From the IMG/VR virus record IMGVR_UViG_2718218305_000006: a stretch of DNA of 64,000 nucleotides; one strand, given 5' to 3'. The number at the start of each line of letters is the position of its first letter. The stretch's first letter is position 1. The position numbers and the translations under genes are program-made. Origin of the DNA: a virus (Duplodnaviria > Heunggongvirae > Uroviricota > Caudoviricetes). This document shows, piece by piece, positions 4,033-50,316 of the stretch. The notes below the pieces were generated by a model. It saw only the letters and a list, made by a program, of their open reading frames with translations, made no database searches and was not told the DNA's origin.

Positions 4033-5979
4033 ATGACATTTAAACATTATGATGTTGTCAGGGCGGCGTCGCCGTCAGACCTTGCTGATGCACTTGCTCA
4101 AAAAATTCGTGAAGGATGGCAACCATACGGCGGGCCGTTTTCTTCGTATACGGATGATGGCGCAGCACTTATTCAGGCGATTGTCGCAGAAGGTGATGTG
4201 AGCACACCTGTTGTGGTGAAGCCGACAGGTGGAGAAGGTGCAGTAATCAGCGCCACCAGAGACCCGGAGTATTACTTTGTTGTGGTTCTGGCGGGGCAGT
4301 CAAACAGCATGGCATATGGTGAAGGCCTTCCGCTGCCGGAGACATATGACCGTCCGGACCCGCGTATTAAGCAGCTGGCGCGCCGCAGTACGGTGACACC
4401 GGGCGGTGCAGCATGCAAATATAACGACATCATTCCGGCGGACCATTGTCTGCATGATGTGCAGGACATGAGCCGCCTTAACCATCCGAAAGCGGACCTG
4501 TCAAAGGGGCAGTACGGTACCGTGGGGCAGGGGCTGCATATTGCCAAAAAACTGCTGCCGTTTATACCGGAGAATGCGGGCATTCTGCTGGTTCCGTGCT
4601 GTCGTGGTGGTTCAGCGTTCACCACCGGAGCTGATGGCACATACAGTGACGCGAGTGGTGCCTCGGAGAATTCAACCCGCTGGGGTGTGGACAAGCCGCT
4701 GTATAAGGACCTTATCGGTCGAACAAAAGCAGCACTGAAGAAGAACCCGAAAAATGTGCTGTTTGCCGTGGTGTGGATGCAGGGGGAATTTGATTTTGAC
4801 GGCACGCCCGGAAATCACGCAGCACAGTTTGGTGCGCTGGTTGATAAATTCCGTGCAGACCTGACGGATATGGCAGGTCAGTGCGTCGGTGGCTCTGCTG
4901 GCGGTGTTCCCTGGATATGTGGAGATACGACGTATTTCTGGAAGCAGAAGAACGAATCCACGTACCAGACGGTGTACGGCAGCTATAAAAACAAAACGGA
5001 AAAGAATATCCATTTCGTACCGTTCATGACCGATGAGAACGGGGTGAATGTGCCGACGAACAAACCGGAAGAAGACCCGGACATTCCGGGTATCGGATAT
5101 TACGGTTCGAAATGGCGTGACAGCTCAGCCACCTGGACGTCACAGGACAGGGCGAGCCATTTCAGCGCCTGGGCACGCCGTGGGATTATTTCCGACCGTC
5201 TGGCAACGGCGATTTTGCGCCATGCGGGAAGAGTGGCGCTAAACGCGGGGGCATCATCGACAGTATCAGAGGTGCGCCCGTCATCGCCTTCCGGTGCAGA
5301 AGCCACAGGCGTCACAACACTGCTCTCTTACCTTGCCAGCGAGTCAGAGGGAAGCCTGAAAGTACAGGGATGGTCAGCCAGTGGCGGCAGGGCAGAAGTG
5401 GTCAGCGATGCGGAGGGAACCGGAGGTAAGGCAGTGAAGCTGACCAAGGAAGCCGGTAAAAGCAGCTGGGTGCTGGAGTACGCCGCGGGCAACGGTGCGG
5501 CTCTGTTACAGAAAGGGGGGCAGATTCGCTGCCGCTTTAAGGTTTCGGGAGCGCTGGCTGCGAACCAGTATGTTATGGCGTTTTACTGGCCGGTATCTTC
5601 ACTGCCACAGGGCGTTGCCCTGACCGGAGACGGGGGGAATAACCTGCTGGCAGCGTTCTACATCCAGACAGATGCAAAAGACCTGAATGTGATGTACCAC
5701 AATGCGAAAGTAGCGACAAACAACCTGAAACTGGGAACCTTTGGCGCATTTGATAACGAATGGCATACGCTGGCTTTCCGCTTTGCCGGGAATAACAGCC
5801 TTCAGGTGACGCCGGTTATTGATGGTCAGGATGGCACACCGTTCACGCTGACGCAGTCACCGGTCAGTGCATTTGCGGCGGATAAACTGCATGTGACAGA
5901 CATTACCAGGAATGCGACTTACCCGGTGCTGATTGACAGCATTGCGGTGGAAGTGAACAACGCGGATGCCGCGGCATGA
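4033..5979 (+). CDS. nanS-p: prophage sialate O-acetylesterase NanS-p (DUF1737 + SGNH/SASA domain)
   Basis: 648 aa; GGAGG RBS; N-terminal MTFKHYDVVRAASPSDLA (DUF1737-like) and VVLAGQSNSMAYGEG SGNH block I; same slot as nanS-p downstream of stx in Stx phages. Confidence 0.8.
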   Translation: MTFKHYDVVRAASPSDLADALAQKIREGWQPYGGPFSSYTDDGAALIQAIVAEGDVSTPVVVKPTGGEGAVISATRDPEYYFVVVLAGQSNSMAYGEGLPLPETYDRPDPRIKQLARRSTVTPGGAACKYNDIIPADHCLHDVQDMSRLNHPKADLSKGQYGTVGQGLHIAKKLLPFIPENAGILLVPCCRGGSAFTTGADGTYSDASGASENSTRWGVDKPLYKDLIGRTKAALKKNPKNVLFAVVWMQGEFDFDGTPGNHAAQFGALVDKFRADLTDMAGQCVGGSAGGVPWICGDTTYFWKQKNESTYQTVYGSYKNKTEKNIHFVPFMTDENGVNVPTNKPEEDPDIPGIGYYGSKWRDSSATWTSQDRASHFSAWARRGIISDRLATAILRHAGRVALNAGASSTVSEVRPSSPSGAEATGVTTLLSYLASESEGSLKVQGWSASGGRAEVVSDAEGTGGKAVKLTKEAGKSSWVLEYAAGNGAALLQKGGQIRCRFKVSGALAANQYVMAFYWPVSSLPQGVALTGDGGNNLLAAFYIQTDAKDLNVMYHNAKVATNNLKLGTFGAFDNEWHTLAFRFAGNNSLQVTPVIDGQDGTPFTLTQSPVSAFAADKLHVTDITRNATYPVLIDSIAVEVNNADAAA

Positions 5980-6608: not shown

Positions 6609-6684
6609 CGGGGAGTCAGGGCCATCAGTAAACAGCTGCTGGCCTTTTTCATGTTGTGAGCTTCCGGATAACGGGAGACGGGGT

Positions 6685-6900
6685 ATGTACCAGATGGAAA
6701 AAATCACAACGGGTGTGTCATACACCACGTCAGCGGTGGGGACGGGATACTGGTTACTGCAGCTGCTGGACAAAGTCTCTCCGTCCCAGTGGGTGGCGAT
6801 AGGTGTGCTGGGGAGTCTGCTGTTTGGCCTGCTGACGTATCTGACTAACCTGTATTTCAAAATTAAAGAGGACCGTCGCAAGGCTGCCCGGGGAGATTAG
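6685..6900 (+). CDS. S: class II holin (phage 21 S-like pinholin), dual-start
   Basis: 71 aa, [10 protein letters not shown].. with two in-frame Met codons (antiholin/holin pattern); resembles phage 21 S holin as recalled. Confidence 0.85.
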
Positions 6901-6903
6901 GTG

Positions 6904-7461
6904 ATGAACCATGAAGAAATGAATCAGCGCTTCAGTCGTCTGGAAAATGAAATTGCTGAACTGAATAAAAAACTGTCGACGCTGATGCCTTCTGAAGATG
7001 AAAAAAAACGCCGCGATGAGCAGTTTGCTGCGTTTGACGATTATTGTCGGAAAGTGATGAGCAGAAATCTCTCAGAGTGTTTCAGTATTCATAATGATAA
7101 TTTCAGTGAGCTGGAATGGGAGTGTAACCGGCCATCCTTTGTTGTATCCGGTGATGCTGGGAAAATAACCATCTCAGAAAATGGAAAAGTAACACCGCCA
7201 TCGCACCAGCATAGTGAGGAGCTCATTGAATTTGCCATTGATTACCTGAAGAACAATAAAAAACAGGGGCTGATGAAGTGCATTGGTCGTTGCATGGGAT
7301 ATCTGCAGATAGCTGCTGAGATTGAAGCGCTGGCCAGTGGTGCGGACAAGGATGCAGTTGTGCGGGAGGCTCTTCTTCGTGAGTTTGACAACCCGCCCTT
7401 TAAAAAAGTGCCGGCTTACTGGTTTCATCCAGGACTGACTTATCTTAAAGGACGTATATAA
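6904..7461 (+). CDS. hypothetical protein inserted between holin and endolysin
   Basis: 185 aa; N-terminal coiled-coil-like segment (ENEIAELNKKLSTL); no family recognised; tightly packed after the holin stop. Confidence 0.5.
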   Translation: MNHEEMNQRFSRLENEIAELNKKLSTLMPSEDEKKRRDEQFAAFDDYCRKVMSRNLSECFSIHNDNFSELEWECNRPSFVVSGDAGKITISENGKVTPPSHQHSEELIEFAIDYLKNNKKQGLMKCIGRCMGYLQIAAEIEALASGADKDAVVREALLREFDNPPFKKVPAYWFHPGLTYLKGRI

Positions 7462-7503
7462 GCTGGCTCGTTATCTGTTGCCGATAAATCCTGATAAATA
7501 TCC

Positions 7504-8037
7504 ATGAACACCAAAATCAAATACGGCCTGTCGGCTGCCGTTCTGGCGCTGATTGCCGCTGGTGCGCCTGCGCCTGACATTCTCGACCAGTTTCTGGATG
7601 AAAAGGAAGGTAACCACACCACGGCATACCGTGATGGTGCGGGTATCTGGACCATCTGCCGAGGTGCCATCATGGTGGATGGTAAGCCTGTGATTCCTGG
7701 CATGAAGCTGTCGAAGGAAAAATGCGACCGGGTTAACGCCATTGAGCGTGATAAGGCGCTGGCATGGGTGGAGAAAAACATCAAAGTGCCACTGACCGAA
7801 CCCCAGAAAGCGGGTATTGCGTCATTCTGTCCTTACAACATTGGCCCAGGTAAGTGTTTCCCGTCGACGTTTTATAAACGAATTAATGCAGGTGATCGCA
7901 GGGGAGCGTGTGAGGCGATTCGCTGGTGGATTAAGGACGGTGGGCGTGATTGCCGCACACGTTCAAATAACTGCTACGGACAGGTTATTCGTCGTGACCA
8001 GGAAAGCGCATTAGCTTGTTGGGGGATAGATCAGTGA
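7504..8037 (+). CDS. R: SAR endolysin (lysozyme R)
   Basis: 177 aa; N-terminal signal-anchor-release segment [16 protein letters not shown] then lysozyme-like domain; near-identical to 48943..49476. Confidence 0.85.
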
Positions 8038-8501
8038 GAAGAGTAACCGCGATTATTTACGCTCTGGTTATCTGCATCATCGTCTGTCTGTTATGGGCTG
8101 TTAATCATTACCGCGATAACGCCATCACCTACAAAGCGCAGCGCGATAAAAAAGCCAGAGAGCTGGAACAGGCGAATGCCACCATTACTGACATGCAGGT
8201 GCGCCAGCGTGATGTTGCTGCGCTCGATGCAAAATACTCGAAGGAATTAGCCGATGCGAGAGCTGAAAATGAAACTCTGCGTGCTGATGTTGCCGCTGGT
8301 CGTAAGCGCCTGCGGATCAACGCCACCTGCCACGGTACCGTGCGTGAAGCCACCGGCACCTCCGGCGTGGATAATGCAACCGGCCCCCGACTGGCAGACA
8401 CCGCTGAACGGGATTATTTCATCCTCAGAGAACGGTTGATGATGATGCAGAAGCAGCTGGAAGGGGCGCAGGAATATATCCGCACTCAGTGTATTAACTA
8501 G
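8034..8501 (+). CDS. Rz: i-spanin Rz
   Basis: GTG start overlapping the R stop; N-terminal TM then coiled-coil; embedded Rz1 in +1 frame. Confidence 0.8.
8269..8439 (+). CDS. Rz1: o-spanin Rz1 (lipoprotein), embedded in Rz
   Basis: [15 protein letters not shown] lipobox followed by a Pro-rich segment, entirely inside Rz. Confidence 0.65.
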
Positions 8502-44707: not shown

Positions 44708-44783
44708 GGCCCTTTAGCTCAGTGGTGAGAGCGAGCGACTCATAATCGCCAGGTCGCTGGTTCAAATCCAGCAAGGGCCACCA
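44708..44783 (+). tRNA. tRNA with CAT anticodon (ileZ-like tRNA-Ile2 or tRNA-Met)
   Basis: Cloverleaf: acceptor GGCCCTT/AAGGGCC, anticodon loop CTCATAA, T-loop GGTTCAAATCC, 3' CCA encoded. Confidence 0.8.
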
Positions 44784-44790
44784 TCACAAA

Positions 44791-44870
44791 CCGCCATTAG
44801 CTTATCAGGAAGAGCAGACGACACCATAACAGGGTTGTTGGTGCGGGGCCGGGTCCCCGATGGCGGTCCA
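44791..44870 (+). other. degenerate tRNA-like element between the two tRNAs
   Basis: Perfect 7-bp acceptor pairing CCGCCAT/ATGGCGG, D-stem and CGGGG/CCCCG T-stem, but 6-nt T-loop and no standard 7-nt anticodon loop. Confidence 0.25.
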
Positions 44871-44883
44871 TTATCGGTATTCT

Positions 44884-44960
44884 GCGTTGTTAGCTCAGCC
44901 GGACAGAGCAATTGCCTTCTAAGCAATCGGTCAGTGGTTCGACTCCACTACAACGCGCCA
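44884..44960 (+). tRNA. tRNA-Arg (anticodon TCT, argO-like)
   Basis: Acceptor GCGTTGT/ACAACGC, anticodon loop CTTCTAA, T-loop GGTTCGACTCC, CCA encoded. Confidence 0.85.
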
Positions 44961-44997: not shown

Positions 44998-45129
44998 GTA
45001 TCTGCGCCACGCCCGGCGCATACCAACCACAGAGCCTTTCGGGGGTGAGCTTACGGAGTGGTCAGTGTGACTTTCTCTGTGGGCAGATCGCTCCCGGGCG
45101 TTGGCTCACCCACCCAAAGGAACGTCACG

Positions 45130-45561
45130 ATGTTTGGAATCTTCAAAAAGAAAACCCGCAGAGCGGCAACGGAAATTAAAAAGTTTGAAAAACGCGATCT
45201 GGCACAGGTGGTGATTAACGCCGCATACCTGGTGGCCTGTGCAGATGGTGAATGTGAGGCATCCGAGAAAGCGAAGATCGAACAGGTACTGCGTAATCAG
45301 CCTGCGCTGTCCGCGTTTACGTCAGAAATTAATGCGATTAGCGCAACCATTATCGGTCAGCTGGATACGAACTTTAAAACTGGTCGTCGTGCGGCGTTAC
45401 GTGAGATTGAGGATGTGAAACACGATACGCGTGAAGCGGAAGATGTGCTGGATGTGGCGGTGGCCATTGCGGAGGCAGACGGCGAAATTGAGCCGGAAGA
45501 GCGCAAGGTGCTGGAAGAGATTGCCGGTGTTCTGGGTCTTCGTCTGGAGAATCACCTGTGA
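45130..45561 (+). CDS. TerB-like domain protein
   Basis: 143 aa from an internal ATG; paired ..ACADGECEASEKAKIEQVL.. and ..IAEADGEIEPEERKVLEEIAGVLGL.. motifs typical of TerB-like proteins. Confidence 0.5.
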   Translation: MFGIFKKKTRRAATEIKKFEKRDLAQVVINAAYLVACADGECEASEKAKIEQVLRNQPALSAFTSEINAISATIIGQLDTNFKTGRRAALREIEDVKHDTREAEDVLDVAVAIAEADGEIEPEERKVLEEIAGVLGLRLENHL

Positions 45562-46038: not shown

Positions 46039-47889
46039 ATGTCGATTAAACATTATGATGTTGTCAGGGCGGCGTCGCCGTCAGACCTTGCGGAAAAGCT
46101 GACACACAAACTGAAAGAGGGCTGGCAGCCGTTTGGTAGTCCGGTGGCCATAACCCCTTATACCCTGATGCAGGCGATTACAGCAGAAGGTGATGTGGTG
46201 GTCAGTGGTGCAACTGAGCCGGATTGGTACTACGTCATCGTACTGGCCGGGCAGTCCAATGCCATGGCTTACGGTGAAGGGCTTCCGCTGCCGGATTCAT
46301 ACGATGCTCCGGATCCGCGCATTAAACAGCTGGCGCGCCGCAGTACAGTGACGCCGGGTGGGGCTGCCTGCAGATATAACGATATTATTCCGGCCGACCA
46401 CTGCCTGCATGATGTGCAGGATATGAGTACGCTGAATCATCCGAAGGCAGACCTGAGCAAAGGGCAGTACGGCTGTGTCGGCCAGGGGTTACATATTGCC
46501 AAAAAACTGCTCCCGTATATCCCGAATAACGCGGGGATCCTGCTGGTACCATGCTGTCGTGGTGGTTCGGCATTTACCCAGGGCGCGGAGGGGATATTCA
46601 GCGAGTCCACGGGGGCCAGCCAGGATTCGGCGCGCTGGGGTGTGGGTAAACCGTTATATCAGGACCTGATTGCGCGCACCAAAGCTGCATTACAGAAGAA
46701 CCCGAAAAATGTGTTGCTGGCGGTGTGCTGGATGCAGGGAGAGTTTGACATGAGCGCCGCCACCCACGCACAGCAACCTGCGCTGTTTACAGCCATGCTG
46801 ACACAGTTTCGTGCTGACCTCTCCGTGTTTAACGCGCAGTGCCATGGTGGCAGTGCTGCAGATGTGCCGTGGATTTGTGGTGACACGACGTATTACTGGA
46901 AAAATACATACGCTACCCAGTACGACACCGTGTACGGCGGGTATAAAAACAGGGAGAGTGAGGGCGTTTATTTTGTGCCCTTCATGACAGACGGTAACGG
47001 CGTCAATACCGCCACTAACGCGCCGGCAGAAGATCCGGATATTCCGGCATCAGGATATTACGGTGCGGCATCGAGAACGAATGGAAACCAGGTATCATCA
47101 AACCGCCCGACACATTTCAGTTCATGGGCGCGCAGGAGCATTATTCCGGATCGTCTGGCAACCGCTATTCTGAACGCAGCCGGGCGCACCTCAGCCTTCA
47201 TCAGTGGTAAGGCACCGGAAATCAAACCCTCGCCCGGCGGCAACACGCCATCGGGTCCGTCTGCAGATACGTCCGTTCGCACAATCTCCCTGCTGCCGGC
47301 AGCCGGAGAGGCTGCTGCGCAGGGCTGGAGCATTAAGGATGGCGGAATTCAGTTGTCAGATGGTGTATTTAAGATCACCAGGCAGAGCAATAAAACCTGG
47401 TCCCTGACGCATCCGGTGGATGACGCAATTACCCTGCTGACACAGGGCGGCAGACTGACCTGTAAGTTCCGCCTGTCAGGCGCACTGACCAACAATCAGT
47501 TCGGGCTGGGGATTTATCTGTATACGGACGCTCCCGTTCCTGATGGTGTGGCGATGACGGGTACCGGTAATCCGTTCCTGATGTCGTACTTCACTCAGAC
47601 CACTGACGGCAGAGTGAATCTGATGCATCACAGGAAAGCCGGAAACACGAAGCTGGGGGAGTTCGGCGATTACGGTAACGACTGGCAGACGCTGGAGCTG
47701 GTGTTCACCGCCGGCAGTGCCACGGTTACTCCGAAACTGAATGGAGTGGCTGGCCCGGCATTCCAGGTTATAAAAGACAGTCTGACACTGGGACTGAATG
47801 CGCTGACGCTGACGGATGTTACAAAAAATGCAGCGTATGGCGTTGAGATAGAAAGTCTGATGCTGGAGATAAATGCACCGGCAGCATAA
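46039..47889 (+). CDS. nanS-p: prophage sialate O-acetylesterase NanS-p paralogue
   Basis: 616 aa; MSIKHYDVVRAASPSDLA.. and VIVLAGQSNAMAYGEG; catalytic domain highly similar to 4033..5979, C-terminal domain diverged. Confidence 0.8.
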   Translation: MSIKHYDVVRAASPSDLAEKLTHKLKEGWQPFGSPVAITPYTLMQAITAEGDVVVSGATEPDWYYVIVLAGQSNAMAYGEGLPLPDSYDAPDPRIKQLARRSTVTPGGAACRYNDIIPADHCLHDVQDMSTLNHPKADLSKGQYGCVGQGLHIAKKLLPYIPNNAGILLVPCCRGGSAFTQGAEGIFSESTGASQDSARWGVGKPLYQDLIARTKAALQKNPKNVLLAVCWMQGEFDMSAATHAQQPALFTAMLTQFRADLSVFNAQCHGGSAADVPWICGDTTYYWKNTYATQYDTVYGGYKNRESEGVYFVPFMTDGNGVNTATNAPAEDPDIPASGYYGAASRTNGNQVSSNRPTHFSSWARRSIIPDRLATAILNAAGRTSAFISGKAPEIKPSPGGNTPSGPSADTSVRTISLLPAAGEAAAQGWSIKDGGIQLSDGVFKITRQSNKTWSLTHPVDDAITLLTQGGRLTCKFRLSGALTNNQFGLGIYLYTDAPVPDGVAMTGTGNPFLMSYFTQTTDGRVNLMHHRKAGNTKLGEFGDYGNDWQTLELVFTAGSATVTPKLNGVAGPAFQVIKDSLTLGLNALTLTDVTKNAAYGVEIESLMLEINAPAA

Positions 47890-48336: not shown

Positions 48337-48543
48337 ATGGAAAAAATCACAACGGGTGTGTCATACACCACGTCAGCGGTGGGGACGGGATACTGGTTAC
48401 TGCAGCTGCTGGACAAAGTCTCTCCGTCCCAGTGGGTGGCGATAGGCGTGCTGGGGAGTCTGCTGTTTGGGCTGCTGACATATCTGACGAACCTGTATTT
48501 CAAGATTAAAGAAGACCGGCGTAAGGCGGCGCGGGGAGAGTAA
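48337..48543 (+). CDS. S: class II holin (S-like), single start
   Basis: 68 aa MEKITTG..; the upstream in-frame Met codon seen in copy 1 is ATA here. Confidence 0.85.
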
Positions 48544-48547
48544 AGTG

Positions 48548-48892
48548 ATGAAGAAAAAATACGAACTGGTTGTTAAAGGGATAAATAATTACCCGGATAA
48601 GATTACTGTTACTGTGGCACTGGAAATTGGTGGGTATCCGTCACTGTTGTTGCCAGATGTGGCGATTAGTCTTGACCGTACTGAAGGTGCCACGCTGGAG
48701 TTTTACGAAGCTGAGGCGAAAAAGCAGGCGAAGCAGTTTTTCATGGATGTTGCTGCCGGGTTATGTGAAGGGGATGGTCCGTTACCGGAAAAGCGTCCCG
48801 TAATTTTAGAGGCGCAGGATGTGTTGATAACCTACAGAGGAAAACTACCGGGAATAATTACGGGTTCTCTGAAGACTCCACCGCTGGCCTGA
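48548..48892 (+). CDS. hypothetical protein inserted between holin and endolysin
   Basis: 114 aa, unrelated to the copy-1 insert at the same slot; no family recognised. Confidence 0.45.
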   Translation: MKKKYELVVKGINNYPDKITVTVALEIGGYPSLLLPDVAISLDRTEGATLEFYEAEAKKQAKQFFMDVAAGLCEGDGPLPEKRPVILEAQDVLITYRGKLPGIITGSLKTPPLA

Positions 48893-48942: not shown

Positions 48943-49476
48943 ATGAACGCAAAAATCAGATACGGCCTGTCGGCTGCCGTTCTGGCGCTGATTGGTGCAG
49001 GGGCGTCTGCGCCTGAAATCCTCGACCAGTTTCTGGATGAAAAGGAAGGTAACCACACCACAGCATACCGTGATGGTGCGGGTATCTGGACCATCTGCCG
49101 TGGAGCCACCCGGGTGGATGGTAAGCCTGTTATTCCTGGCATGAAGCTGTCGAAGGAAAAATGCGACCGGGTTAACGCCATTGAGCGTGATAAGGCGCTG
49201 GCATGGGTGGAGAAAAACATCAGAGTGCCACTGACCGAACCCCAGAAAGCGGGGATTGCGTCATTCTGTCCGTACAACATTGGCCCCGGTAAGTGTTTCC
49301 CGTCGACGTTTTACAGACGGATTAATGCAGGAGATCGAAAAGGTGCCTGCGAAGCTATTCGCTGGTGGATTAAGGACGGTGGCAGGGACTGCCGTATTCG
49401 CTCAAATAACTGTTACGGTCAGGTATCCCGTCGTGACCAGGAGAGCGCGCTGGCGTGCTGGGGAATCGACAGATAA
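48943..49476 (+). CDS. R: SAR endolysin (lysozyme R)
   Basis: 177 aa, near-identical to 7504..8037. Confidence 0.85.
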   Translation: MNAKIRYGLSAAVLALIGAGASAPEILDQFLDEKEGNHTTAYRDGAGIWTICRGATRVDGKPVIPGMKLSKEKCDRVNAIERDKALAWVEKNIRVPLTEPQKAGIASFCPYNIGPGKCFPSTFYRRINAGDRKGACEAIRWWIKDGGRDCRIRSNNCYGQVSRRDQESALACWGIDR

Positions 49477-49746: not shown

Positions 49747-50316
49747 ATGAATATGATGGCCGTGCCGTTTCACGGCAACTCTCTTTATGTAGTTAACCAT
49801 AATGGCGAACCATACGTTCCCATGAAACCTGTCGTTGCGGGGATGGGGCTGGCCTGGCAATCACAGTTGGCTAAGTTAAGACAGCGTTTTGCGTCAACTA
49901 TAACGGAAATCGTTATGGTTGCTGAGGATGGGAAACAACGCAATATGGTGTCCATGCCACTTCGAAAACTTGCCGGCTGGCTACAAACCATTAATCCCAA
50001 CAAAGTAAAACCCGAAATCCGCGATAAGGTCATCCGGTATCAGGAAGAGTGCGACGATGTTCTTTACGAGTACTGGACGAAGGGTTTTGTCGTTAATCCC
50101 CGTAAAATGAGCGTGATGGAAGAACTCAACCAGGCTTGTGCTGACATGAAACGGGATAAAAACATTGCCAGTGTGTTTGCTACCGGGCTGAATGAGTGGA
50201 AACAGGTTAAAGCCGCGCATGTATCAAAAATCCGTACGCTGGTAAATGAAGCGAATATGCTGATTGATTTTGTCCTGGCTGATACAGGCAAAGGGAAAAT
50301 AACAAAGGCGGATTGA
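49747..50316 (+). CDS. phage antirepressor-like protein (AntA/P22 AR N-terminal type)
   Basis: ..VPFHGNSLYVVNHNGEPYVPMKPVVAGMGLAWQSQLAKL.. antirepressor N-domain pattern; inserted between R and Rz. Confidence 0.6.
   Translation: MNMMAVPFHGNSLYVVNHNGEPYVPMKPVVAGMGLAWQSQLAKLRQRFASTITEIVMVAEDGKQRNMVSMPLRKLAGWLQTINPNKVKPEIRDKVIRYQEECDDVLYEYWTKGFVVNPRKMSVMEELNQACADMKRDKNIASVFATGLNEWKQVKAAHVSKIRTLVNEANMLIDFVLADTGKGKITKAD

What the first reader, a model, noticed from the sequence alone, without database searches (positions are those of the whole stretch)
6904..7461. Unknown 185-aa gene inserted inside the lysis cassette between holin and endolysin (prophage 1)
Holin and endolysin are usually adjacent. 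Here a 185-aa ORF with a coiled-coil-like N-terminus is wedged between them and packed tightly after the holin stop, so it would be expressed from the late promoter at lysis. No family recognised. Prophage 2 carries an unrelated gene at the same slot, so this is a variable cargo position.
Basis: partly seen in the sequence, partly recalled or inferred. Interest (0 to 1): 0.6.

Follow-up and report, generated by a model that had tools for sequence, protein, structure and literature searches.

The report
Stand-alone half of a YdfR-family prophage gene
The 185-aa gene between holin and endolysin is real, but it is not a foreign insert: it is the free-standing back half of a modular, still uncharacterised "YdfR-family" late gene that normally fills this position in E. 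coli lambdoid prophages, and the gene at the same position in the second prophage is the front half of that family.

Summary
The ORF (6904-7461, +) is real. It starts 3 nt after the holin stop, has its own Shine-Dalgarno sequence, and has no promoter or terminator before the lysozyme gene. It is under purifying selection (dN/dS about 0.2 for the C-terminal domain).

It has no Pfam, NCBIfam or PADLOC match, but it matches PHROG 1085 (function unknown). It is 81-90% identical to the C-terminal ~180 aa of 287-333-aa "YdfR family / DUF1327" proteins. I call the family's modules A (DUF1327), B (coiled-coil hairpin) and C (a ~115-aa alpha/beta domain). The target is B+C. The prophage 2 gene at the same position is A alone.

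In 74 related loci, holin and lysozyme are adjacent in 31. In the other 43 the position is filled, always by A, AB, BC or ABC. E. coli K-12 Qin (essQ-ydfR-rrrQ) shows the same layout, so the arrangement is ordinary for this cassette type.

Distant Salmonella ABC relatives lie upstream of the holin instead. The C domain (AlphaFold2 pLDDT 80-94) has no fold relative in PDB or BFVD. The only experimental data for the family is that K-12 YdfR (module A) binds the RNase E catalytic domain.

The function of B+C is unknown. My best guess is a soluble cytoplasmic late factor that partners with the DUF1327 module. A role in lysis timing is the main rival.

The parts
6618..6651 (+). Terminator-like hairpin plus U-run between the DUF826 gene and the holin. 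The late transcript would have to read through it.
   Evidence: RNA fold: stem GGGCCAUCAG...CUGCUGGCC followed by UUUUUC; the 60-nt stretch folds at -20 kcal/mol, z -1.7. The consensus scan did not list it. Function not tested.
6685..6900 (+). P21-type class II holin, 71 aa, with a Met1/Met4 dual-start motif.
   Evidence: PF04971 E 8.5e-33; phrog_20 and phrog_9876 holin; 79% identical to K-12 EssQ.
6892..6895 (+). Shine-Dalgarno GGAG for the target gene, inside the last holin codons. This suggests translational coupling.
   Evidence: Read directly: 8 nt upstream of ATG 6904; holin stop TAG at 6898-6900.
6904..7461 (+). The target gene: 185 aa, 21.3 kDa, pI 5.8, no transmembrane segment. It is a stand-alone B+C form of the modular YdfR family.
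   Evidence: phrog_1085, E 7e-112, profile positions 117-296 of 296; dN/dS.
6904..7083 (+). Module B (residues 1-60): antiparallel coiled-coil hairpin, followed by a disordered linker (residues 54-71).
   Evidence: AlphaFold2 helices 3-27 and 31-53; pLDDT below 50 for residues 54-71; heptad count; also found after DUF1327 in 183-aa A+B proteins (phrog_2091).
7117..7458 (+). Module C (residues 72-185): conserved alpha/beta domain of three strands and four helices, with motifs GRCMGYLQ.AAEIE and DNPPFK. No recognisable fold and no Pfam model.
   Evidence: AlphaFold2 pLDDT 80-94; invariant residues F79, H103, G128, R129, L134, Q135, A137, E139, I140 and P165; no fold match; dN/dS 0.22.
7462..7503 (+). 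42-nt spacer before the lysozyme gene. The right-hand mosaic joint lies at about 7481/7482. No terminator or promoter.
   Evidence: fold -4.2 kcal/mol, no better than shuffles.
7504..8037 (+). RrrQ-type lysozyme with a SAR-like N-terminus, 177 aa.
   Evidence: PF00959 E 1e-23; 90% identical to K-12 RrrQ.
8016..8501 (+). Rz spanin, with Rz1 embedded at 8254-8439.
   Evidence: PF03245 E 1.4e-50; ORF list.
48545..48892 (+). Prophage 2 gene at the same position: DUF1327 (module A) alone, 114 aa from the ATG at 48548.
   Evidence: PF07041 E 1.7e-46; 47% identical to K-12 YdfR residues 1-74; same flank joints as the target (48552 and 48921).
48337..48543 (+). Prophage 2 P21-type holin.
   Evidence: PF04971 E 7.3e-33.
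48943..49476 (+). Prophage 2 RrrQ-type lysozyme.
   Evidence: PF00959 E 1.5e-24.

Best explanation
Shown (confidence about 0.9): the ORF is a genuine, selectively maintained late gene. It is the stand-alone 'B+C' form of a modular lambdoid-prophage family. B is an N-terminal coiled-coil hairpin. C is a ~115-aa alpha/beta domain with no recognisable fold. The full-length members (287-333 aa, named 'YdfR family protein' by NCBI, PHROG 1085) carry a DUF1327 domain (A) in front of B+C. The gene sits where this family normally sits in E. coli cassettes with a P21-type holin and an RrrQ-type lysozyme. It reads as co-transcribed with the lysis genes and translationally coupled to the holin. The protein is predicted to be soluble, acidic and cytoplasmic. 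The prophage 2 gene at the same position is module A alone.

Inferred (confidence about 0.3-0.4): B+C is the partner or effector half of a two-part late cytoplasmic factor. [quoted passage not shown] In fusions the halves work in cis. Here B+C would work alone, or in trans with DUF1327-only proteins such as the one prophage 2 encodes in the same cell. The expected effect is on host or phage RNA turnover late in the lytic cycle, not on the holin-endolysin machinery itself.

The overall confidence given (0.42) is for the whole statement including the inferred mechanism.
For: Identity and architecture:
- 81-90% identity over 98% of the target to the C-terminal part of DUF1327-containing proteins (alignment).
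- phrog_1085 match to profile positions 117-296 of 296.
- Distant Salmonella relatives (30-32% identical to the target across the shared region; DUF1327-like N-terminus) keep the A+coil+C order.
- In L045 a B+C gene is followed by a separate DUF1327 gene at the same position.
- The flank joints are identical for the target and the prophage 2 gene.

Real gene: dN/dS is 0.22 for C and 0.43 for B, including stand-alone versus stand-alone pairs at 0.21-0.23. Stand-alone forms are a diversified group of 185, 208-217 and 184 aa at 47-97% identity.

Expression context: SD plus a 3-nt spacer after the holin stop. No promoter or terminator between holin and lysozyme.

Cytoplasmic: no transmembrane segment (maximum Kyte-Doolittle 19-residue window 0.95), pI 5.8.

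Not tied to the holin|endolysin junction: four distant loci place the ABC gene between the Q antiterminator and the holin, with holin and lysozyme adjacent.

RNase E link: K-12 YdfR residues 1-72 bind the RNase E N-terminal catalytic domain in two-hybrid assays and by co-purification, and RNA co-purifies with it (PMC13232886). The prophage 2 module A is 47% identical to that region.
Against: - No experiment addresses B+C.
- The RNase E data concern only module A, which the target lacks. In that study ydfR overexpression changed few transcripts.
- The target shows no sequence similarity to K-12 YdfR.
- Fusion and adjacency argue for a shared pathway but do not identify it.
- In the 74 IMG/VR loci the family gene was found only next to RrrQ-type lysozymes: 43 filled and 8 adjacent, against 0 filled and 23 adjacent for R21-type. 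That would fit a lysis-related role equally well.
- Interaction in trans between B+C and A is pure inference.
Confidence: 0.42

Rival explanations
1. Cytoplasmic lysis-timing accessory. The protein tunes when or how the pinholin triggers, or how the RrrQ-type SAR endolysin is exported or released. T4 RIII is a functional precedent: a cytoplasmic protein that acts on the holin (own knowledge).
For: - Translationally coupled to the holin and immediately upstream of the lysozyme.
- The family always lies in or next to the lysis cassette in E. coli, Shigella and Salmonella.
- In the 74-locus sample it is present only with RrrQ-type lysozymes (43 of 51, against 0 of 23 with R21-type).
- Two of three distant loci whose lysozyme could be read also have RrrQ-type lysozymes.
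- A published envelope-integrity screen flagged ydfR, as cited in PMC13232886. I could not verify this in the main text of PMC3879167.
Against: - No transmembrane segment, signal peptide or similarity to any holin, antiholin or PHROG 'lysis' family.
- 8 of 51 RrrQ-type cassettes lack the gene.
- Distant relatives sit upstream of the holin, and one has a different lysozyme. L091 has a filled position with a lysozyme only 43% identical to the window's.
- The association may be plain linkage within one cassette lineage, since the loci are not independent.
Confidence: 0.25
2. A late-expressed accessory gene for something other than lysis or RNA turnover, such as counter-defence, superinfection exclusion or a host-fitness effect. 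This would make it cargo in the first reader's sense.
For: - It lies in the Q-to-lysis region where lambdoid phages keep accessory genes; NanS-p-type esterase, DUF1378 and DUF826 genes lie just upstream.
- Patchy distribution: DNA matches in 810 of 5426 complete E. coli genomes.
- Narrow taxonomic range: 42 representatives among 1.84 billion proteins, and 3 of 185,579 species genomes.
- Rapid module shuffling.
Against: - No own promoter or terminator.
- No PADLOC match for any of the 53 family members above noise.
- Every filled position holds the same family rather than diverse cargo.
- No positive evidence for any specific activity.
Confidence: 0.15
3. A decaying remnant: a 5'-truncated ABC fusion that still has an open frame but no function.
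For: - The target lacks the family-defining DUF1327 domain.
- Several related copies are frameshifted or split: L036, L043, L055, L018, L052.
- Many E. coli prophages are cryptic.
Against: - dN/dS is 0.2 between stand-alone copies.
- The stand-alone N-terminus (MNHEEMNQRFSRLENEIAELNKKLS) is a distinct, conserved allele shared by 185-, 213- and 209-aa forms at 47-97% identity. It is not a simple deletion product: homology to the fusions resumes only at 6957 or 6999.
- It has its own SD and ATG.
- Independent stand-alone forms exist among distant relatives (P0133, P0141).
Confidence: 0.07
4. One reading: an independent foreign gene wedged into an otherwise contiguous holin-endolysin pair, unrelated to the gene at the same position in prophage 2.
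For: - No pairwise similarity between the two genes.
- Holin and lysozyme are adjacent in 31 of 74 sampled loci.
Against: - The two genes are fused in one protein in many prophages.
- Every one of the 43 filled positions holds modules of this family.
- K-12 Qin has the same layout.
- 23 of the 31 adjacent cases carry a different, R21-type lysozyme.
Confidence: 0.05

Closest known systems
Long 'YdfR family / DUF1327 domain-containing' proteins of E. coli prophages (287-333 aa; e.g. P0035, P0007, and the 297-aa ORF of ATCC 25922), PHROG 1085
   Same: Modules B+C are 81-90% identical to the target over 98% of its length. They sit in the same position between a P21-type holin and an RrrQ-type lysozyme, with the same flank joints.
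   Different: They carry an N-terminal DUF1327 domain of about 110 aa that the target lacks. The first ~30 residues of the target's coil are a divergent allele. Their function is also unknown.
E. coli K-12 YdfR (b1555, Qin prophage, 103 aa, DUF1327)
   Same: It occupies the same position, essQ-ydfR-rrrQ. It is linked to the target through the fusion proteins. It is the only family member with experimental data: it binds the RNase E catalytic domain and co-purifies RNA (PMC13232886).
   Different: No detectable sequence similarity to the target. It corresponds to module A only, that is, to the prophage 2 gene (47% identity).
Salmonella enterica 240-338-aa hypothetical proteins (P0129, P0160-P0169)
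   Same: Same order of DUF1327-like domain, coil and C domain. The C-domain motifs GR(C/S/A)MG.LQ.AAEIE and DNPPFK are conserved. They lie in lambdoid late operons next to P21-type holins.
   Different: Only 30-32% identical to the target. They lie upstream of the holin, between Q (plus a toxin-antitoxin pair) and S, and holin and lysozyme are adjacent.
Cytoplasmic lysis regulators such as T4 RIII or P1 LydB (own knowledge; functional analogy only)
   Same: Small soluble proteins encoded with lysis genes that modulate holin timing.
   Different: No sequence or fold similarity was detected to anything in the Pfam or PHROG lysis categories. No lysis phenotype is known for this family.
Phage modulators of RNase E: T7 gp0.7, phiKZ Dip, T4 Srd (own knowledge; functional analogy only)
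   Same: Phage proteins that target RNase E. Module A of this family binds the RNase E catalytic domain.
   Different: No homology. The target lacks module A. No effect on RNA decay has been shown for any family member.

Membership tests
DUF1327 / YdfR family (Pfam PF07041) | Match to PF07041 above the gathering score (25 bits) | tested here: not met
   The target has no PF07041 hit at E<=1. The prophage 2 gene scores 156.8 bits. K-12 YdfR shows no alignment to the target.
PHROG 1085 (phage protein family, function unknown) | Significant match to the family profile | tested here: met
   E 7.2e-112, 374.6 bits. Residues 1-185 align to profile positions 117-296 of 296, so the first 116 positions (the DUF1327 part) are absent.
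Long YdfR-family fusion (A+B+C architecture) | Homologous coiled-coil (B) and C-terminal domain (C) | tested here: met
   81-90% identity over 98% of the target; alignment A1.
Long YdfR-family fusion (A+B+C architecture) | N-terminal DUF1327 domain in the same polypeptide | tested here: not met
   The target ATG lies 3 nt after the holin stop, with no upstream coding sequence in frame.
Long YdfR-family fusion (A+B+C architecture) | Late-operon position beside a P21-type holin | tested here: met
Holin / antiholin | One or more transmembrane segments, or homology to a holin family | tested here: not met
   Maximum Kyte-Doolittle 19-residue window is 0.95, against 1.83 for the neighbouring holin. 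No holin family hit.
Known lysis accessory proteins (PHROG 'lysis' category, Pfam lysis families) | Sequence or fold similarity | tested here: not met
Known lysis accessory proteins | Effect on lysis timing | not testable with these tools
   Needs lysis curves of isogenic cassettes.
Moron (autonomous promoter-gene-terminator unit) | Own promoter and terminator flanking the gene | tested here: not met
   No promoter-like or terminator-like site between 6685 and 7504 on the + strand. The spacer before the lysozyme is unstructured.
Anti-phage defence proteins (PADLOC-DB) | Match to a defence-system model | tested here: not met
   No family for the target at E<=10. Only noise-level hits in 53 family members.
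RNase E-binding YdfR function | Binding to the RNase E N-terminal catalytic domain | not testable with these tools
   Shown for K-12 YdfR residues 1-72 (PMC13232886). The target lacks that region.

The most novel reading that the evidence does not exclude
B+C is a new functional domain pair that acts in trans with DUF1327-only proteins made by co-resident prophages. That would be a split, inter-prophage two-component late factor. It would either redirect RNase E and RNA decay during lytic growth or set lysis timing for cassettes with a pinholin and an RrrQ-type SAR endolysin. The constant shuffling of A, AB, BC and ABC forms would then reflect selection on how the two halves are coupled.
Probability: 0.12. 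Interest if true: 0.65.

Novelty: new variant of a known kind. Interest (0 to 1): 0.33.

Why it matters
The gene belongs to a family found beside the lysis genes of a large share of E. coli lambdoid prophages, including O157 and Stx-phage relatives. DNA matches occur in 810 of 5426 complete genomes, yet nobody knows what the family does.

Three results sharpen the question:
- The two different genes at this position in the window are the halves of one fusion protein, which gives a concrete, cheap hypothesis: test whether B+C binds DUF1327 proteins or RNase E, or changes lysis timing.
- The C-terminal domain is an undescribed domain, with no Pfam model and no fold relative.
- RefSeq annotation leaves the B+C coding region unannotated in at least one intact fusion, so the family is likely under-counted.

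If the family turns out to control RNA decay or lysis timing, it would bear on Stx-phage induction biology. If not, it is one more uncharacterised accessory gene.

Tried and rejected
1. First AlphaFold2 run with 30 close homologues: pLDDT 49, unusable beyond the N-terminal hairpin. A second run with 53 sequences including the Salmonella relatives gave pLDDT 78.6.
2. Fold searches with the good model:
   - Foldseek against BFVD and PDB gave nothing at E<=0.001.
   - afdb50 was unavailable.
3. A profile search against PDB sequences found nothing below E 0.03.
4. Pfam, NCBIfam and PADLOC scans of the target and of all 53 family members gave only DUF1327 in the fusions plus weak coiled-coil noise such as Relaxase_C and ABC_tran_CTD.
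5. The idea that the C domain is an internal duplicate of DUF1327 was rejected by hhalign (probability 0.6%).
6. The idea that the target is a simple deletion derivative of a fusion was rejected. The first ~30-50 codons are a divergent allele, and homology to the fusions resumes only at 6957 or 6999.
7. Three large repeat proteins in the representatives search (P0142, P0149, P0159) were inspected or judged false positives.
8. The literature has nothing on DUF1327 as a term. For ydfR there is only the 2026 RNase E interaction paper. The envelope-integrity screen it cites does not mention ydfR in its main text.

Full report

- The preceding gene (6685-6900) is a P21-type class II holin (PF04971, E 8.5e-33).
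- The following gene (7504-8037) is a phage lysozyme with a hydrophobic, Gly/Ala-rich, SAR-like N-terminus.
- Rz (8016-8501) with embedded Rz1 (8254-8439) follows.
- The holin stop TAG (6898-6900) is 3 nt from the ATG, and GGAG at 6892-6895 lies 8 nt upstream.
- No promoter-like or terminator-like site lies between the holin start and the lysozyme start, and the 42-nt spacer before the lysozyme is unstructured.
- A terminator-like hairpin sits upstream of the holin at about 6618-6651.

The gene therefore reads as part of the late transcript and as translationally coupled to the holin. This is inferred from the layout and has not been measured.

**2. It is a real gene.** A word-indexed search of 5.8 billion proteins found 169 homologues, all E. 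coli where a source names them. From 15 distinct intact copies (the window plus IMG/VR loci), pairwise Nei-Gojobori dN/dS has a median of 0.22 for residues 70-185 and 0.43 for residues 1-60. Comparisons between stand-alone copies give 0.21-0.23. The protein is 21.3 kDa with pI 5.8. Its highest 19-residue hydropathy is 0.95, against 1.83 for the holin, so it has no membrane segment.

**3. What it is.** Pfam, NCBIfam and PADLOC give nothing. PHROGs places it in phrog_1085 (function unknown, E 7e-112), but it covers only profile positions 117-296 of 296.

The homologue list explains this. Many hits are 287-333-aa proteins that NCBI names 'YdfR family' or 'DUF1327 domain-containing'. Their C-terminal ~180 residues are 81-90% identical to the whole target. 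The alignment shows three modules:

- A is the DUF1327 domain.
- B is a coiled-coil segment.
- C is a conserved C-terminal domain with the motifs GRCMGYLQ.AAEIE and DNPPFK.

The target is B+C.

The gene at the same position in prophage 2 (48545-48892) is A alone (PF07041, E 1.7e-46). It has no pairwise similarity to the target. So the two 'unrelated' genes are the two halves of one fusion protein seen in other prophages.

Other observed architectures are A, A+B, B+C, B+insert+C (213 aa), A+C and A+B+C. In locus L045 a B+C gene is followed by a separate DUF1327 gene (34.7 bits) at the same position. An hhalign test found no relationship between A and C.

**4. How ordinary the arrangement is.** I fetched the 80 IMG/VR loci with the closest holins and classified the space between holin and lysozyme. 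Of 74 loci with both genes:

| State of the position | Loci |
|---|---|
| Holin and lysozyme adjacent | 31 |
| A only | 20 |
| B+C (three disrupted) | 9 |
| A+B+C (two split) | 11 |
| A+B | 3 |

- Every filled position contains modules of this family. A few also contain extra reverse-strand ORFs.
- Splitting by lysozyme type, RrrQ-type lysozymes (at least 70% identical to the window's) have 43 filled and 8 adjacent. R21-type lysozymes have 0 filled and 23 adjacent.
- The loci are not phylogenetically independent. One E. coli genome (L091) has a filled position with a lysozyme only 43% identical to the window's.
- E. coli K-12 Qin has essQ-ydfR-rrrQ-rzpQ. Its holin is 79% and its lysozyme 90% identical to the window's.
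- Nucleotide homology between variants breaks at the same two points. The left break follows the first two codons of the inserted gene (6908). The right break lies 22 nt before the lysozyme ATG (7481/7482). Prophage 2 shows the same breaks.
- Target-like DNA occurs in 810 of 5426 complete E. coli genomes, and in 248 of them at 80% coverage or more.

**5. Wider distribution.** A profile search of 1.84 billion representative proteins found only 42 hits, three of which are repeat-protein false positives. The real distant relatives are 30-32% identical to the target and come from Salmonella enterica where named. They keep the order DUF1327-like domain, coil, C domain. Stand-alone forms also occur among them (P0133, P0141).

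In four such loci the gene lies between the Q antiterminator (plus a ParE or HicAB toxin-antitoxin pair) and the holin. Holin and lysozyme are adjacent in the three loci that reach the lysozyme. So the family is tied to the late operon next to the lysis genes, but not to the holin|endolysin junction as such.

Among 185,579 species-representative genomes, only three carry the C domain: an Escherichia sp., Shigella flexneri and E. coli. All three have it as B+C between holin and lysozyme.

**6. Structure.** With 30 close homologues AlphaFold2 failed (pLDDT 49). With 53 sequences including the Salmonella relatives it gave pLDDT 78.6 and pTM 0.58:

- a helical hairpin (helices 3-27 and 31-53);
- a disordered linker (residues 54-71);
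- a C domain of three strands (79-97) and four helices (101-117, 123-144, 151-161, 178-184) at pLDDT 80-94.

**7. Function.** No family member has an assigned function. The only experimental data are from PMC13232886:

- Residues 1-72 suffice for binding.
- RNA co-purifies with it.
- Overexpression changes few transcripts.

The prophage 2 module A is 47% identical to that region. The target lacks it.

From the fusions and the adjacency, I infer that B+C works in the same pathway as A. My best guess is a soluble cytoplasmic late factor acting with DUF1327 on RNase E or RNA. Here it would act alone or in trans with DUF1327-only proteins such as the one prophage 2 encodes.

The main rival is a cytoplasmic lysis-timing accessory. 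The tight coupling to the holin and the association with RrrQ-type lysozymes favour it. The upstream position in distant relatives and the lack of any similarity to lysis proteins argue against it. A decaying-remnant reading is unlikely given dN/dS and the diversified stand-alone group.

**8. Comparison and novelty.** The target is not a DUF1327 or YdfR-family member by the Pfam definition (tested, not met). It is homologous to the C-terminal two-thirds of the long proteins that NCBI files under that name, and it is a partial member of PHROG 1085.

A gene between holin and endolysin is already visible in the K-12 annotation. What has not been described, as far as these libraries and the paper search show, is the following:

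- the modular A/B/C structure of the family;
- the fact that the two genes at this position in the window are its halves;
- the C domain as a separate domain with no recognisable fold.

I rate it a new variant of a known, uncharacterised kind. Interest is modest. The arrangement is ordinary, but the fusion link gives a cheap and specific hypothesis for a widespread gene of O157-type prophages.

Noticed in passing
L088 (E. coli ATCC 25922, NZ_CP009072.1) 1350-2243; many 'none' rows: An intact 297-aa A+B+C ORF is annotated in RefSeq only as a 112-codon 'YdfR family protein, incomplete, missing C-terminus' pseudogene. The B+C coding part is left unannotated. Other genomes also show no annotated feature under the match. 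Only this one genome was checked.
   Followed up: partly
window 49747-50316 (prophage 2); L081 7391-7921: A second variable position lies between lysozyme and Rz. Prophage 2 has an antirepressor-like gene there (P22_AR_N + ORF11CD3), and a Salmonella relative has a KilA-N gene at the same place. In prophage 1 the lysozyme and Rz genes overlap.
   Followed up: partly
window 4033-5979 and 46039-47889: Both prophages carry a large esterase gene upstream of the lysis cassette, with SASA sialate O-acetylesterase, DUF1737 and DUF6645 domains. In prophage 1 it is followed by DUF1378 and DUF826 genes. This is the NanS-p-type layout of Stx-phage late regions (own knowledge).
   Followed up: partly
window 44708-44960 and 45058-45561: In prophage 2, tRNA-Met and tRNA-Arg genes are followed by a 167-aa TerB-domain ORF, just upstream of the esterase gene. 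Stx phages carry stx at this place (own knowledge). No stx gene is present.
   Followed up: partly
L027 4871-5239 (-) and L045 2516-2866 (-): Some loci carry an extra reverse-strand ORF (122 aa and 116 aa, no Pfam match) between the B+C gene and the lysozyme. These may be genuine independent cargo.
   Followed up: partly
L081 3136-3838; L084 2780-3434; L085 3136-3769; L087 2508-2921: In the Salmonella and other distant loci, a toxin-antitoxin element (ParE with an HTH partner, HicA/HicB, or HicB alone in L087) sits between the Q antiterminator and the YdfR-like gene.
   Followed up: no
window 6618-6651: A terminator-like hairpin with a U-run lies between the DUF826 gene and the holin. The whole lysis block, including the target, would then depend on read-through, presumably by Q antitermination.
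   Followed up: partly
L046, L049, L058, L063, L066, L073, L076, L079: The eight RrrQ-type cassettes without an inserted gene have a lysozyme that begins MSRK or MSK instead of MNTK, directly after a 'TAAGCTGATG' junction. This resembles the start of the inserted gene here ('TAGGTGATGAA'). It hints that they arose by deletion between the start of the inserted gene and the lysozyme start.
   Followed up: no
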